Positions 4,573 through 33,178 of a stretch of 64,000 bases of DNA are shown one piece after another. The notes beneath the pieces were generated by a model, which saw only the letters and a list, made by a program, of their open reading frames with translations, searched no databases and was not told the origin of the DNA. Numbering within the stretch: position 1 is the first letter of the stretch; every line of letters begins with the position of its first letter. The stretch lies in NCBI RefSeq assembly GCF_055900595.2, contig NZ_CM148325.1. One strand, written 5' to 3'. A program made the translations under genes and the position numbers.

Positions 4573-5706
4573 TTAAACCGTCAACACCACACAGCTGTCC
4601 ACTTCCCAGCACAAACGCACTTCGTCGCCCCAGGTCGGTAACCCTTTGCGATAACGATGGGCGTTTTGTAGCTGGGCGCTAATCATTTGCCCGCTTTTTA
4701 GACGAACGTGATACACCGAAAGATCGCCGAGATAGGCAATGTGCATCACCTCCCCTACCGCGAAGTTACAACCATTGGCGGGCGGTGCTTCGCAAAGCAT
4801 GATTTTTTCCGGCCGCAGCGCCACATGCACCGGCACGTTATCGACCACCGAAGCATCTACATCAACTTTCAGTGGATGCACCAGCCCCGGCGAATAAAGC
4901 ACCAGACCATCTTCCTGACGCTCTTTGAGTACACCTTCAAAGACGTTTACCGAACCGATAAATTCAGCACTGTAGCGCGTGGTCGGATGCTCGTAGATCT
5001 CTTCCGGCTCGCCAATCTGGACAAATTTCCCACGATTCATAATGGCGATACGCCCCGCCATCGTCATCGCCTCTTCCTGATCGTGAGTAACCATCACGCA
5101 GGTCACACCGACACGTTCCAGAATATCCACCACTTCAAGCTGCATCCGGTCACGCAGTTTTTTATCCAGCGCGCCCATCGGCTCGTCGAGCAGTAATAGT
5201 TTCGGACGTTTGGCGAGGCTTCGGGCCAGCGCCACACGCTGTCGCTGACCGCCGGAAAGCTGATGCGGTTTGCGTTTGGCGAACTCCTGCATATGCACCA
5301 GCCCAAGCATCTCATTGACCCGGCTGGCAATTTCCGCTTTCGGCAATTTGTCCTGTTTCAGGCCAAAAGCGATGTTCTGTTCCACGGTCATATGCGGAAA
5401 CAGCGCGTAAGACTGAAACATCATATTGATAGGGCGCAGGTAAGGCGGTACCTGTGATAAATCGACGCCATCGAGCATAATCTGCCCGGCAGAAGGTTGT
5501 TCGAAACCTGCCAGCATACGCAGCAGCGTGGACTTGCCACAGCCGGATGCGCCCAGCAGCGCGAAGATTTCGCCTTTATAGATGGTCAGGCTGACATCAT
5601 CGACCGCATGCTGACCATCGTAAGATTTAGTCAGATTACGGATTTCTAATAGCGGCGTCAGCGCCTTACGGGTTTTCGCCTGGGGGCGAGGGATAGCGTC
5701 ATTCAC
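4573..5706 (-). CDS. potG: putrescine ABC transporter ATP-binding protein PotG
   Basis: GTG start at 5706 (plus-strand CAC at 5704..5706) gives 377 aa beginning (M)NDAIPRPQAK; Walker A GASGCGKST, LSGGQRQR signature. Confidence 0.9.
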   Translation of the reverse strand: MNDAIPRPQAKTRKALTPLLEIRNLTKSYDGQHAVDDVSLTIYKGEIFALLGASGCGKSTLLRMLAGFEQPSAGQIMLDGVDLSQVPPYLRPINMMFQSYALFPHMTVEQNIAFGLKQDKLPKAEIASRVNEMLGLVHMQEFAKRKPHQLSGGQRQRVALARSLAKRPKLLLLDEPMGALDKKLRDRMQLEVVDILERVGVTCVMVTHDQEEAMTMAGRIAIMNRGKFVQIGEPEEIYEHPTTRYSAEFIGSVNVFEGVLKERQEDGLVLYSPGLVHPLKVDVDASVVDNVPVHVALRPEKIMLCEAPPANGCNFAVGEVMHIAYLGDLSVYHVRLKSGQMISAQLQNAHRYRKGLPTWGDEVRLCWEVDSCVVLTV

Positions 5707-5800
5707 GGCTGCTCTCCGGCATTGAATGTGTGCAAGCGCACCCTGATGGTGCGAATTGCCGGCGGGTGTGGTGCGCCCGTCCGGCATCTACGGCTGCGGA

Positions 5801-6913
5801 TTATTTTCCGCTCTTCACTTTGGTCCACGCGCGGGTGCGCACACGGTCGATTTTCGGATCCTGCACTTTCAGAGTGAACAGCTTCGCACGGACATCCGCA
5901 GGCGGGTAAATACCGGGGTTATCACGCACTTCCGCGCTTACCAGCGGCGTAGCTTCTTTGTTCGCGTTGGCATAGAACACATGGTCAGAGATATGCGCTA
6001 CGACATCCGGACGCAGCAGGTAATTCAGGAACTGATAAGCTTCGTCTTTATTTTTGGCATCCGCAGGCATGGCAAATACATCAAAGAATGCCATCGCCCC
6101 TTCTTTCGGAATCGAGAACGAGACATTCACGCCATTCTTTGCTTCCTTCGCGCGGTTTGACGCCTGCCAGACATCGCCCGCCCAGCCAATAGCGACGCAG
6201 ATATCGCCGTTTGCCAGGTCGTTAATGTATTGAGATGAATGGAAATAACGAATGTTCGGGCGCAGCTTTAACAGCAGATCGGTTGCCGGTCCGGTGTAAT
6301 CATCTGCTTTAGTGCTGTTGGGATCTTTACCGAGATAATTCAGCACGGTAGCAAACACTTCTTCCGGTGCATCAAGGAAAGAGACGCCGCAGCTTTTCAG
6401 TTTTTCCAGATTTTCAGGTTTGAGGATCAAGTCCCAGCTATCGACGGGCGCGTTTTCACCCAGTACAGCTTTGACTTTATCGACGTTATAGCCAATCCCG
6501 GTCGTCGCCCACATATAGGGCATAGCAAATTTATTATCCGGGTCATGTTTAGCGACCAGCTTCAGCAGTTCCGGGTCGAGATTCTTCCACTCCGGCAATT
6601 TGTTTTTATCCAGTGGCTGGAAAACTCCCGCTGTCAGCTGGCGTTCAAGAAAGCTTGCTGACGGCACCACCAGGTCAAACCCGGTGCTCCCCGCCATTAA
6701 TTTTCCTTCCAGTACTTCGTTGGAATCGAAAACATCGTAAACGACTTAAATACCGGTTTCTTTTTCAAAATTGGCCACCGTATCCGGGGCGATATAATCA
6801 GACCAGTTATAGATGTGGAGTGTTTTTTGTTCAGCCGCGAGCGTGCCGACAGAGACGGCCATCAGAGCACCCGCAACCAGACCCGATAGCCATTTTTTAT
6901 TTAAGGCGGTCAT
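5801..6913 (-). pseudogene. potF: putrescine-binding periplasmic protein PotF, interrupted by in-frame TAA stop at codon 56
   Basis: ATG at 6913 ([11 protein letters not shown]... signal peptide) and stop at 5801 span the 370-codon length expected for PotF, but plus-strand TTA at 6746..6748 is an in-frame TAA (...FEKETGI*VVYDVF...); ORF track splits the gene into 6746..7063 and 5801..6697 in the same frame. Confidence 0.85.
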
Positions 6914-31287: not shown

Positions 31288-31306
31288 TTTATTCTCCGCC
31301 TGAATG

Positions 31307-33178
31307 TTATCTACGCATGAATGCGTATTCTGATTGTGGTTGTGCGACGTAATGCCCCGGCCCGACGCATTGCAACGAGACGGCTGCAACCTCTTCGCCA
31401 CGCAGATGAATATTGCTGGGAAGATCGTCCGACAGCAGTACACGCTGCGGTCGTTGTCGGGACGGTTCAGCGACCGGAACTGCCGCCAGTAATTTACGCG
31501 TATAAGGATGCTGCGGGTTTTCAAAGACCGCGCGCCGTGGACCAATTTCAACAATTTGTCCGAGATACATCACCGCCACACGATGACTAATCCGCTCTAC
31601 AACGGCCATATCGTGGGAGATAAACAGATACGCAATGCCGAAATCACGCTGGAGATCGAGCAACAAGTTGATAATCTGCCCGCGAATAGAAACATCCAGC
31701 GCTGATACGGCTTCATCGGCAATGATCACTTTTGGATTCAATGCCAACGCGCGAGCAATGCAGATGCGCTGGCGCTGACCGCCGGAAAACTCATGCGGGT
31801 AACGCCAGGCATGTTCAGGTAACAGGCCCACGCGCTCTAGCAACCACGCAACGCGTGCAGCCGCTTCTTTACCTGGCAATAAACCGTGTACGCGCAGCGG
31901 TTCGATAATCGAATCACCGATGGTCTGACGTGGGTCCAGCGAAGCGTAAGGGTCCTGAAAAATAAACTGAATATCGCGACGCAATGCCTGAAGTTTGCCG
32001 GGTGACAAAGTATCGATTCGCTGACCGTTAAAGATAATTTCGCCGCCCTGCGATTCGACCAGGCGCAGCAACGCCCGCCCGGTAGTGGATTTACCGCTGC
32101 CAGACTCGCCCACCAGCGATAGCGTTTCGCCAGGCCAGAGATCAAAACTGACTTTCTCAACGGCATGCACTTCCCGCGTTACGCGATTCAACAAACCGCT
32201 GCGCAAAGGGAAACGGGTGACCAGATTACGCACCCGTAAAACAGGTTCGCCATCCACCACCGTTTTCTGCTCGATGGGTGGTTCCTGTTTCGCTGGATGT
32301 TCAAGCGATATCAATGGGAAACGTCGGGGATTATCTAACCCTTTCATCGCACCAAGTTGCGGAACAGCAGCTAACAGCGCACGGGTGTAAGGATGTTGCG
32401 GTGCATGAAAAATCTGTTTGACGCTACCCGTTTCCACCGCCTCGCCCTGATACATCACCAGTACCCGATCGGCAATCTCTGCCACCACACCCATATCGTG
32501 AGTGATAAAGATAACGCCCATCGACATCTCTTTTTGCAATACTTTGATTAATTGCAGGATCTGCGCCTGAATAGTGACATCCAGCGCGGTGGTTGGCTCA
32601 TCGGCAATCAGCACCGCCGGGCGGCATGACAGTGCCATCGCAATCATCACTCGCTGGCGCATCCCGCCAGAGAGTTGATGCGGATAACGTGAAAGAATGG
32701 TTTGTGCCTCCGGAATGCGTACCTGATCCAGCATCCGCTTCGCCTCGACCATTGCTTCTTCACGACTGGCGTTTTGATGCAGACGAATTGATTCGGCAAT
32801 CTGTTCACCCACGGTAAATACCGGGTTCAGCGATGTCATCGGCTCCTGAAATATCATCGCCATATCCGCACCGCGCACATGGCGCATTTGTGCAGCGCTC
32901 TGTTCGCTAAGTTCAATCACCTCACGACTGCGCCGCCGCAACAGCATTTGATCGCACTGCACTAAACCACCCGCCTGTTCCAACAGGCGCATCAATGCCA
33001 GCGCAGTCACTGACTTACCGGAGCCGGATTCGCCAACAATTGCCAGCGTCTCACCACGTTGTAGGCTAAAAGAGAGATTGCGGACCGCAGCTATTTTCTG
33101 CTGGTCCTGCCTAAAGGCAATATTCAGATTTTCAACCGCCAGCACATCACCGGCATCAAGTTCATCACTGTGTGGCAA
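31307..33178 (-). CDS. gsiA: glutathione ABC transporter ATP-binding protein GsiA (two ABC domains)
   Basis: two Walker A motifs (GESGSGKS twice); probable TTG start at 33178 preceded by AAGGGGA gives (M)PHSDELDAG..., 623 aa; upstream in-frame ATG at 33286 lacks an RBS. Confidence 0.85.

What the first reader, a model, noticed from the sequence alone, without database searches (positions are those of the whole stretch)
4573..33178. Non-ATG initiation codons inferred for potG, rimK, ybjL and gsiA
Expected protein lengths are only obtained with GTG starts for potG (5706), rimK (8730) and ybjL (10878) and a TTG start for gsiA (33178, preceded by AAGGGGA). For gsiA an upstream in-frame ATG at 33286 without an RBS would add 36 residues, so the start is ambiguous.
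Basis: partly seen in the sequence, partly recalled or inferred. Interest (0 to 1): 0.1.

Follow-up and report, generated by a model that had tools for sequence, protein, structure and literature searches.

The report
GTG/TTG start codons of known genes
Four ordinary E. coli genes (potG, rimK, ybjL, gsiA) do begin with GTG or TTG instead of ATG, exactly as reference annotations already say, so the finding is correct but routine.

Summary
The window is an E. coli chromosome segment. All four start coordinates match the RefSeq annotation of an almost identical genome and of K-12 MG1655: potG GTG 5706, rimK GTG 8730, ybjL GTG 10878, gsiA TTG 33178.

- **Comparative support.** Across about 80 Enterobacteriaceae genomes (10 for gsiA) the aligned codon is GTG or TTG in nearly all. 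Third-position variation begins right at each start.
- **Upstream ATGs.** The gsiA ATG at 33286 and an unmentioned potG ATG at 5787 are not conserved and lack a Shine-Dalgarno (SD) sequence. In-frame stops cut them off in other genera.
- **Published experiments (K-12).**
  - rimK: an N-terminal peptide, Ribo-RET and INRI-seq signals.
  - gsiA: tetracycline ribosome profiling picked this TTG.
  - potG: only weak in-vitro support.
  - ybjL: no signal at its GTG. An in-vitro peak was assigned to an in-frame ATT 39 nt downstream, but that codon is not conserved.
- **Not enriched.** Five of 27 genes is the normal E. coli rate.

Verdict: confirmed, already known, low interest. Side observations are a private nonsense codon in potF and a highly conserved, SD-less ybjL leader.

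The parts
4573..5706 (-). potG CDS (377 aa), GTG start codon at 5704..5706
   Evidence: It matches the RefSeq features in NZ_CM128605.1, NZ_CP098223.1 and K-12 b0855. In 76 sequences (74 other genomes plus the window and K-12) the aligned codon is GTG in 55, TTG in 21 and ATG in none. INRI-seq gave a weak signal in 2 of 5 replicates.
5712..5717 (-). potG Shine-Dalgarno GGAGAG, 5 nt upstream of the GTG
   Evidence: The SD:anti-SD duplex energy is -6.6 kcal/mol. The core CCGGAGA is present in all 76 sequences and the longer GCCGGAGAGCA in nearly all.
5785..5787 (-). potG upstream in-frame ATG (-81; would give 404 aa); judged not to be the start
   Evidence: It has no SD (+0.6 kcal/mol) and its U and G lie in the stem of a GC-rich hairpin at 5757..5786. 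It occurs only in E. coli. An in-frame stop sits at -3 in 17 loci, and at -24 to -39 in others. The 404-aa form is a minority annotation, on 49 contigs against at least 1000.
7828..8730 (-). rimK CDS (300 aa), GTG start at 8728..8730, SD GAGG at 8737..8740
   Evidence: This is the first start codon after an in-frame stop at -27. Across 82 sequences the codon is GTG in 74, ATG in 6 and TTG in 2. SD energy is -7.8 kcal/mol. The K-12 N-terminal peptide MKIAILSR, Ribo-RET and INRI-seq all support it. PDB 5zct residues 1-300 are co-linear.
10878..12563 (+). ybjL CDS (561 aa), GTG start at 10878..10880, no SD
   Evidence: This is the first ATG/GTG/TTG after the in-frame TAA at -51. GTG is found in all 78 sequences. 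Column entropy over codons 2-20 is 0.01, 0.01 and 0.45 bits at positions 1, 2 and 3. Residues 6-555 align to AspT residues 5-540. SD energy is only -1.1 kcal/mol. Neither INRI-seq nor Ribo-RET shows a signal at the GTG.
10819..10877 (+). Conserved, unstructured, SD-less ybjL leader, containing the palindrome TTACTAGTAA at 10851..10860
   Evidence: Mean column entropy is about 0.45 bits, against 1.4-1.6 for the regions upstream of potG, rimK and ybjM. The fold z-score is +1.2 and no covariation was found. The palindrome was located. The function of this leader is unknown.
   Evidence: It is annotated with a GTG start in both genomes. SD energy is -10.3 kcal/mol. INRI-seq detected it in 5 of 5 replicates and Ribo-RET gave 27. 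Other genera mostly use TTG.
31307..33178 (-). gsiA CDS (623 aa), TTG start at 33176..33178
   Evidence: It matches the RefSeq features and K-12 b0829. Other Escherichia and Citrobacter use TTG; Salmonella, Lelliottia, Pluralibacter and Leclercia use GTG. TetRP selected this TTG.
33184..33190 (-). gsiA Shine-Dalgarno AAGGGGA, inside the 3' end of iaaA
   Evidence: Duplex energy is -7.8 kcal/mol, ending at -6. The motif is AAGGGG or AAGGAG in nine of the ten genomes and CAGGAG in Pluralibacter.
33165..33178 (-). 14-nt overlap between the iaaA stop and the gsiA start
   Evidence: iaaA spans 33165..34130 and gsiA starts at 33178. In Salmonella, Lelliottia, Leclercia and Pluralibacter iaaA ends 5-11 nt before the gsiA start. 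In E. fergusonii iaaA is absent.
33284..33286 (-). gsiA upstream in-frame ATG (-108; would give 659 aa); judged not to be the start
   Evidence: SD energy is -1.5 kcal/mol. The ATG is absent in E. albertii, Salmonella and Leclercia. In-frame stops at -18 (Lelliottia), -30 (E. fergusonii) and -84 (Pluralibacter) cut off any such extension. The 659-aa form is on 6 contigs against at least 1000.

Best explanation
These are ordinary protein-coding genes of the E. coli core genome whose main initiation codons are near-cognate: GTG for potG, rimK, ybjL and ybjM, and TTG for gsiA. All are decoded as fMet by initiator tRNA.

- **potG, rimK, ybjM and gsiA.** The 30S subunit is positioned by a Shine-Dalgarno sequence 5-6 nt upstream of the start.
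- **gsiA.** Its SD and start lie inside or overlap the 3' end of iaaA, so translational coupling with iaaA is plausible. This is inferred, not shown.
- **potG.** The upstream ATG lies in an intercistronic hairpin and is not used.
- **ybjL.** It has no SD. It most likely initiates at its GTG through an A/U-rich, unstructured leader. This is inferred.

The weak start codons probably help keep these proteins at low synthesis rates, for example the ATPase subunits relative to the binding proteins PotF and GsiB. This last point is inference from the conservation pattern.
For: **Annotation identity.** All four starts match RefSeq in a near-identical genome and in K-12.

**Conservation of start and SD across genera.**
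- potG: GTG 55, TTG 21, ATG 0; the SD core CCGGAGA is in every sequence; an in-frame stop sits at -3 in 17 loci.
- rimK: GTG 74, ATG 6, TTG 2.
- ybjL: GTG in 78 of 78.
- gsiA: TTG in 6 and GTG in 4 of 10 genomes, each followed by a conserved PHS.

**Codon periodicity.** Third-position variability starts exactly at the proposed start and is absent upstream.

**SD energies.** The annotated starts score -6.6 to -10.3 kcal/mol. The upstream ATGs score +0.6 and -1.5.

**Co-linear N-termini in solved homologues.**
- RimK 1-300 aligns to 5zct 1-300.
- PotG residue 12 aligns to PotA residue 10.
- GsiA residue 9 aligns to DppD residue 5.
- YbjL residue 6 aligns to AspT residue 5.

**Experiments in K-12, where the sequence around each start is identical.**
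- rimK: N-terminal peptide MKIAILSR, plus Ribo-RET and INRI-seq.
- ybjM: INRI-seq in 5 of 5 replicates, plus Ribo-RET.
- gsiA: TetRP chose the TTG, with 46/140/71 against 0/0/3 at the earlier downstream start.
- potG: INRI-seq in 2 of 5 replicates.

**Weak-codon maintenance.** At least 7 independent GTG<->TTG switches occurred at potG and none to ATG.
Against: - **ybjL.** No Ribo-RET or INRI-seq signal at the GTG. An in-vitro INRI-seq peak (52 CPM, 4 of 5 replicates) was assigned to an in-frame ATT at +39, which has a weak SD-like GGGA (-4.2 kcal/mol).
- **gsiA.** No INRI-seq or Ribo-RET signal. Support rests on TetRP and comparison.
- **potG.** Only marginal in-vitro signal and no in-vivo data found.
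- **INRI-seq design.** Its templates start at about -30, so that method never tested the upstream ATGs.
- **Strain.** All experiments are from K-12, not this strain.
- **Mechanistic inferences.** Translational coupling and selection for weak starts are inferences.
Confidence: 0.93

Rival explanations
1. The longer ORFs are the real products. potG would start at ATG 5787 (404 aa) and gsiA at ATG 33286 (659 aa), and the GTG/TTG calls would be annotation convention.
For: Both ATGs are in frame, with no stop before the annotated start. ATG is the strongest start codon. Some public annotations use the long forms: PotG 404 aa on 49 contigs, GsiA 659 aa on 6 and 656 aa on 12.
Against: - Neither ATG has an SD: +0.6 and -1.5 kcal/mol.
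- The potG ATG lies in a hairpin stem.
- The ATGs are not conserved, and in-frame stops separate them from the conserved start in many genera.
- There is no codon periodicity upstream of the GTG of potG.
- The extensions have no counterpart in the solved homologues PotA and DppD.
- TetRP placed the gsiA start at the TTG.
Confidence: 0.03
2. ybjL actually initiates downstream at the in-frame ATT (window 10917, +39), giving a 548-aa protein. The GTG would be an annotation default, chosen as the first start codon of the ORF.
For: INRI-seq found no peak at the GTG. It found a reproducible peak assigned to ATT +39 (51.9 CPM, 4 of 5 replicates). The GTG has no SD (-1.1 kcal/mol), whereas ATT +39 has GGGA upstream (-4.2 kcal/mol).
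Against: - Ribo-RET in vivo shows nothing at the ATT.
- Codon 14 is ATC or ATA in most other genera, which is ordinary wobble variation of an Ile codon, while the GTG is invariant in 78 of 78.
- Codons 2-13 show pure third-position variation.
- The solved homologue AspT aligns from its residue 5 to YbjL residue 6, so a start at codon 14 would truncate the conserved N-terminal segment.
- INRI-seq uses synthetic transcripts with only about 30 nt of the roughly 118-nt leader.
Confidence: 0.06
3. Dual initiation: both the annotated near-cognate start and a second in-frame start are used. Candidates for the second start are potG ATG -81, gsiA ATG -108 or GTG -18, and ybjL ATT +39. This would give two N-terminal proteoforms with distinct roles.
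For: Alternative in-frame starts are documented for dozens of E. coli genes (PMC9825163). The INRI-seq peak in ybjL fits. The extensions are open in E. coli.
Against: None of the second sites is conserved beyond E. coli or its close relatives. None has in-vivo support in the datasets examined.
Confidence: 0.05

Closest known systems
Curated K-12 MG1655 annotation of potG (b0855), rimK (b0852), ybjL (b0847), ybjM (b0848) and gsiA (b0829)
   Same: The start codon, protein length and upstream 25 nt are the same for potG, rimK, ybjL and gsiA. The upstream 25 nt are identical in the window and in K-12.
   Different: ybjM is 124 aa here against 125 aa in K-12. This strain differs from K-12 by about 2-3% in DNA sequence and carries a private nonsense codon in potF.
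SD-led GTG/TTG initiation in E. coli (for example cra GTG and rpsT TTG, listed in the TRAINSPOTTER table)
   Same: A near-cognate codon decoded as fMet, with an SD 5-6 nt upstream. This applies to potG, rimK, ybjM and gsiA.
   Different: ybjL lacks an SD.
Start revision of yliA/gsiA by tetracycline-inhibited ribosome profiling (Nakahigashi et al. 2016, PMC4909307)
   Same: Exactly this TTG, with N-terminus [10 protein letters not shown]....
   Different: That work was done in K-12.
Overlapping stop/start translational coupling in operons
   Same: The gsiA TTG lies 11 nt upstream of the iaaA stop, and its SD lies inside iaaA.
   Different: Coupling was not tested. The overlap is not conserved: iaaA ends before gsiA in Salmonella and related genera, and E. 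fergusonii lacks iaaA.

Membership tests
Authentic near-cognate (GTG/TTG) primary start of a bacterial CDS | The start codon sits at the position that yields the ortholog-consistent N-terminus | tested here: met
   All four match RefSeq and K-12. tblastn alignments start at query residue 1 in 76-82 sequences. N-termini are co-linear with PDB homologues.
Authentic near-cognate (GTG/TTG) primary start of a bacterial CDS | The start codon is conserved as ATG, GTG or TTG across orthologs, while upstream candidates are not conserved or are cut off by in-frame stops | tested here: met
   - potG: 76 of 76 are GTG or TTG.
- rimK: 82 of 82 are GTG, ATG or TTG.
- ybjL: 78 of 78 are GTG.
- gsiA: 10 of 10 are TTG or GTG.
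- Upstream stops occur at -3 to -39 in many loci.
Authentic near-cognate (GTG/TTG) primary start of a bacterial CDS | The coding signature (third-position variability) begins at the start and is absent upstream | tested here: met
   Entropy at codon positions 1/2/3 over codons 2-20, with the upstream value in brackets:
- potG 0.20/0.25/0.99 (upstream flat at about 1.6).
- rimK 0.08/0.09/0.79 (upstream flat at about 1.4).
- ybjL 0.01/0.01/0.45 (upstream flat at about 0.45).
- ybjM 0.67/0.59/1.36 (upstream flat at about 1.55).
All. gsiA was judged only qualitatively, from 10 genomes.
Authentic near-cognate (GTG/TTG) primary start of a bacterial CDS | A Shine-Dalgarno sequence at 5-10 nt spacing | tested here: met
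   Met for potG (-6.6), rimK (-7.8), ybjM (-10.3) and gsiA (-7.8 kcal/mol). Not met for ybjL (-1.1). Random 20-mers in the window average -2.3, with a 5th percentile of -6.2.
Authentic near-cognate (GTG/TTG) primary start of a bacterial CDS | Direct experimental mapping of initiation or of the protein N-terminus | tested here: inconclusive
   All evidence is from the K-12 literature.
- rimK: met (peptide, Ribo-RET, INRI-seq).
- ybjM: met.
- gsiA: met by TetRP, but no INRI-seq or Ribo-RET signal.
- potG: weak INRI-seq only.
- ybjL: not met.
Nothing was measured in this strain.
SD-independent initiation on an unstructured A/U-rich leader (considered for ybjL) | No SD, and low secondary structure around the start | tested here: met
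   SD energy is -1.1 kcal/mol and the local MFE over -30..+30 is -5.6 kcal/mol. The 126-nt region folds less stably than its shuffles, z = +1.23. No conserved structure or covariation was found.
SD-independent initiation on an unstructured A/U-rich leader (considered for ybjL) | Demonstrated ribosome binding or initiation at the start without an SD | not testable with these tools
   This needs toeprinting or reporter fusions. Published INRI-seq and Ribo-RET show no signal at the GTG.
Translationally coupled overlapping gene pair (iaaA-gsiA) | The downstream start lies within a few nt of the upstream stop, with the SD inside the upstream CDS | tested here: met
   The overlap is 14 nt (33165..33178) and the SD lies at 33184..33190, inside iaaA.
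Translationally coupled overlapping gene pair (iaaA-gsiA) | gsiA translation depends on iaaA translation | not testable with these tools
   No experiment was found. E. fergusonii keeps the same TTG and AAGGAG without iaaA upstream, so coupling is not obligatory.
Known structured RNA element (riboswitch or leader) at any of the starts | A match to an Rfam family | tested here: not met
   Only RybB (12643..12721) reached the gathering score within 4000..34500.

The most novel reading that the evidence does not exclude
Weak initiation may be actively maintained at these genes, and ybjL may carry an undescribed cis-regulatory element.

- **potG.** Its start switched between GTG and TTG at least 7 times across Enterobacteriaceae but was never ATG.
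- **ybjL.** Its GTG is invariant in 78 of 78 sequences. It sits at the end of a roughly 60-nt leader that is almost as conserved as coding sequence. The leader has no SD and no structure, and contains the palindrome TTACTAGTAA and an AAC-AAG-AAG run.

This could mark an unknown protein- or sRNA-binding site that controls ybjL translation.
Probability: 0.2. Interest if true: 0.3.

Novelty: already known. Interest (0 to 1): 0.05.

Why it matters
It matters little. The finding reproduces the curated annotation of well-known E. coli genes. Its rate of non-ATG starts is the genome-wide norm.

The practical value is as a sanity check. Automatic gene callers still sometimes choose the upstream ATGs: PotG at 404 aa and GsiA at 656 or 659 aa exist in public databases. 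The comparison assembled here shows why those calls are wrong.

The ybjL start is the one case that still lacks direct experimental proof.

Tried and rejected
- **Upstream-ATG long forms of potG and gsiA.** Rejected on SD energy, hairpin occlusion, lack of conservation, in-frame stops in other genera and TetRP.
- **ybjL start at ATT +39, from INRI-seq.** Considered and judged an in-vitro secondary site.
- **Structured RNA or riboswitch in the ybjL leader or at other starts.** Rfam found only RybB. RNAalifold gave -6.1 kcal/mol with zero compensatory pairs. A single-sequence fold was less stable than its shuffles.
- **Second conserved copy of the TTAC..GTAA palindrome upstream of ybjL.** The E. 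coli near-copy at about 10740 is not conserved as a palindrome. That block reads GATTAAACTA in other genera. In E. coli the block adjoins and overlaps the TAAAAT -10 element of the TTGATA-19-TAAAAT promoter listed in PMC3946193.
- **Consensus promoter scan of 10550-10950.** It found nothing, because it allows only 16-18 nt spacers.
- **gsiA orthologs in the rimK-centred loci.** None were present, so they were fetched separately.
- **Supplements with nothing usable.** Those of the Ribo-RET and Onc112 preprints are not held. The Salmonella riboproteogenomics paper has no entries for these genes.
- **Literature search for potG start-codon experiments.** It returned nothing relevant.

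
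Full report
**What the window is.** The region is an E. coli chromosomal segment, in reverse orientation relative to K-12. It runs artJ-rlmC-ybjO-potIHGF-ybjN-rimK-nfsA-ybjC-grxA-ybjM-ybjL-rcdA ... gsiDCBA-iaaA-moeAB. Of 5,426 complete E. coli genomes, 8 match the two queried stretches at 99% or better (about 99.95% in the 8.3-kb stretch). All the rest are at or below about 98.2%. Against the closest genome, NZ_CP098223.1, there are 10 single-base differences in 36.5 kb.

**Check of the observation.** The sequence shows the following:
- GTG at 5706 (- strand).
- GTG at 8730 (- strand).
- GTG at 10878 (+ strand).
- TTG at 33178 (- strand), preceded by AAGGGGA at 33190..33184.
- An in-frame ATG at 33286 that would add 36 residues.

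These coordinates are exactly the CDS starts in RefSeq for the near-identical genomes. They correspond to the K-12 MG1655 features potG b0855 (377 aa), rimK b0852 (300 aa), ybjL b0847 (561 aa) and gsiA b0829 (623 aa). The upstream 25 nt are identical in K-12.

Extracting the start codon of every annotated CDS in the span showed two omissions:
- ybjM (10234..10608, - strand) also starts with GTG.

Five non-ATG starts among 27 genes is unremarkable. If 12-17% of E. coli starts are non-ATG, P(>=5) is 0.22-0.50. The 12% figure follows from the statement in PMC9825163 that about 88% of annotated starts are ATG; the 17% bound is my own recollection.

**Comparative test for potG, rimK, ybjL and ybjM.**

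*Data.* One scan of species-representative genomes with RimK returned 80 Enterobacteriaceae loci with 10-kb flanks, at 85-98% RimK identity. The N-terminal 120 residues of each protein were located by tblastn. Nearly all alignments began at query residue 1.

*Start codons.* The codon aligned to the E. coli start was:

| Gene | GTG | TTG | ATG |
|---|---|---|---|
| potG | 55 | 21 | 0 |
| rimK | 74 | 2 | 6 |
| ybjL | 78 | 0 | 0 |
| ybjM (74 sequences on the rimK tree) | 16 | 58 | 0 |

For ybjM, three loci have a non-start codon at the aligned position and an ATG one codon upstream.

*Shine-Dalgarno motifs.* CCGGAGA (potG) and GAGGT (rimK) are present in every sequence. AGGAGG (ybjM) is present in most.

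*potG upstream ATG.* For potG, 17 loci have an in-frame stop at -3, and others at -24 to -39. The -81 ATG exists only in E. coli itself.

*Codon signature.* Column entropies show the coding signature switching on exactly at the proposed start. Positions 1/2/3 of codons 2-20 give 0.20/0.25/0.99 for potG, 0.08/0.09/0.79 for rimK, 0.01/0.01/0.45 for ybjL and 0.67/0.59/1.36 for ybjM. The upstream in-phase triplets are flat.

**Comparative test for gsiA.** GsiA orthologs were found, and DNA was fetched for eight genera or species. The results are:

*Start codon.*
- It is TTG in E. coli, E. albertii, E. fergusonii, Citrobacter farmeri and C. amalonaticus.
- It is GTG in Salmonella, Lelliottia, Pluralibacter and Leclercia.
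- It is always followed by PHS, with synonymous changes.
- It is preceded by AAGGGG or AAGGAG, or CAGGAG in Pluralibacter.

*The -108 ATG.*
- It is absent in E. albertii, Salmonella and Leclercia.
- In-frame stops lie at -18 (Lelliottia), -30 (E. fergusonii) and -84 (Pluralibacter).

*iaaA context.*
- E. fergusonii lacks iaaA altogether.
- In four genera iaaA ends 5-11 nt before gsiA.
- So the 14-nt iaaA/gsiA overlap seen here is not conserved, while the start is.

**Physical plausibility.** Duplex energies with the 16S anti-SD are as follows:

| Site | Energy (kcal/mol) |
|---|---|
| potG GTG | -6.6 |
| rimK GTG | -7.8 |
| ybjM GTG | -10.3 |
| gsiA TTG | -7.8 |
| potG ATG -81 | +0.6 |
| gsiA ATG -108 | -1.5 |
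| gsiA GTG -18 | -3.0 |
| ybjL GTG | -1.1 |
| Random 20-mers in the window | mean -2.3, 5th percentile -6.2 |

The potG upstream ATG lies in the stem of a GC-rich intercistronic hairpin at 5757..5786, one of two hairpins between potF and potG.

Solved homologues have co-linear N-termini:
- E. coli RimK 5zct/4iwx 1-300, and Pseudomonas RimK 1-290.
- PotA residue 10 aligns to PotG residue 12.
- DppD residue 5 aligns to GsiA residue 9.
- AspT residue 5 aligns to YbjL residue 6.

**Published experiments (K-12).**
- **TRAINSPOTTER N-terminomics, Table S1.** It lists rimK with the peptide MKIAILSR at positions 1-8 and a GTG start, supported by Ribo-RET, INRI-seq and REPARATION.
- **INRI-seq Tables S2 and S3**, which include the Ribo-RET values of Meydan et al.:
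  - ybjM was detected in 5 of 5 replicates, with Ribo-RET 27.
  - rimK was detected in 3 of 5, with Ribo-RET 26.
  - potG was detected in 2 of 5, at 5.2 and 7.3 CPM, with no Ribo-RET signal.
  - gsiA was not detected.
  - ybjL was not detected at the GTG. A putative in-frame ATT at +39 gave 51.9 CPM in 4 of 5 replicates, with Ribo-RET 0.
  - The templates start at about -30, so the method cannot test the upstream ATGs.
- **Tetracycline-inhibited ribosome profiling (PMC4909307, Table S2).** It lists yliA (gsiA) with a new TTG start 33 nt upstream of the 2006 annotation. The signal was 46/140/71 against 0/0/3 at the old start, and the N-terminus was [10 protein letters not shown]. This coincides with the current annotation.

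**ybjL is the weakest case.** It has no SD and no direct experimental support. The ATT +39 alternative is nevertheless unlikely to be the main start, for three reasons:
- Codon 14 is ATC or ATA in most genera, while the GTG is invariant.
- Codons 2-13 vary only at third positions.
- AspT aligns from residue 5.

The region around the start is unstructured. Its fold z-score is +1.23 and there is no covariation. This is compatible with SD-independent initiation, which is an inference.

**Annotation history and database noise.** The K-12 protein versions NP_415376.4 (potG) and NP_415350.2 (gsiA) show that these records have been revised. The long forms exist as minority annotations: PotG 404 aa on 49 contigs, GsiA 659 aa on 6 and 656 aa on 12. 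The accepted forms are each on at least 1000 contigs.

**A mildly interesting pattern.** On a rimK neighbour-joining tree, the potG start changed between GTG and TTG at least 7 times and never became ATG. Together with the invariant ybjL GTG, this suggests that weak starts are maintained by selection. This is a known general idea and remains an inference here.

**Verdict.** The observation and interpretation are correct, and the gsiA ambiguity is resolved in favour of TTG. Nothing is new; this is the curated annotation.

Noticed in passing
window 6746..6748 (- strand), potF codon 56: potF carries a premature stop in this window: AAA (Lys) has become TAA, from window base A at 6748 where the reference has T. 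This splits potF into two ORFs, 5801..6697 and 6746..7063. None of 5,426 complete E. coli genomes has this base; the best match over an 81-nt query is 98.8%. It is either a strain-private pseudogene or a sequencing error. It could exert polarity on potG.
   Followed up: partly
window 10819..10877 (+), ybjL 5' leader; palindrome TTACTAGTAA at 10851..10860: The 60 nt upstream of the ybjL GTG are almost as conserved as coding sequence across 77 Enterobacteriaceae. Mean column entropy is about 0.45 bits, against 1.4-1.6 upstream of neighbouring genes. The stretch has no SD, no stable or covarying structure and no Rfam match. It contains the inverted repeat TTAC-NN-GTAA and an AAC-AAG-AAG run. Its function is unknown.
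   Followed up: partly
window 10917..10919 (+), ybjL codon 14 ATT: Published INRI-seq reports an in-vitro initiation peak assigned to this in-frame ATT (K-12 position 889779, +39), and none at the annotated GTG. The codon is ATC or ATA in most other genera.
   Followed up: yes
window 10723..10753 (+): A candidate ybjL sigma-70 promoter, TTGATA-19-TAAAAT, is listed as a constitutive promoter in an H-NS-bound spacer in PMC3946193. It implies a 5'UTR of roughly 118 nt. The simple promoter scan missed it because of the 19-nt spacer.
   Followed up: partly
window 5704..5706 (potG start), across loci L006-L085: The potG start codon flips between GTG and TTG at least 7 times across Enterobacteriaceae and is never ATG in 76 sequences. 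ybjM behaves similarly, mostly TTG outside Escherichia. This suggests selection to keep weak start codons.
   Followed up: partly
window 33165..34130 / 31307..33178 (iaaA-gsiA); proteins P0004-P0006, P0008, P0017: Some E. coli records encode proteins of 900-940 aa that carry both the Asparaginase_2 (IaaA) and ABC-transporter (GsiA) domains. They are presumably frameshift fusions across the 14-nt overlap.
   Followed up: no
loci L086-L092 (gsiA orthologs): The iaaA-gsiA junction is evolutionarily plastic. There is a 14-nt overlap in Escherichia and Citrobacter and a 5-11-nt gap in Salmonella, Lelliottia, Leclercia and Pluralibacter (iaaA 312-315 aa). iaaA is absent in E. fergusonii.
   Followed up: partly
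window 12643..12721 (+): The RybB sRNA gene (Rfam RF00110, 104 bits) lies between ybjL and rcdA, as in K-12.
   Followed up: yes
whole window: The strain belongs to a sparsely sampled lineage. Only 8 of 5,426 complete E. coli genomes are 99% or more identical over the tested stretches; these include dog isolate Z0117EC0005 (Korea) and E200086 from human stool in Mali. All others are at or below about 98.2%.
   Followed up: no
window 5737..5786 (- strand), potF-potG intergenic region: Two GC-rich hairpins lie between the potF stop and the potG SD. The first sequesters the upstream ATG. They may act as an intercistronic mRNA-stabilising or attenuating element. The overall fold z-score is only -1.4.
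   Followed up: partly
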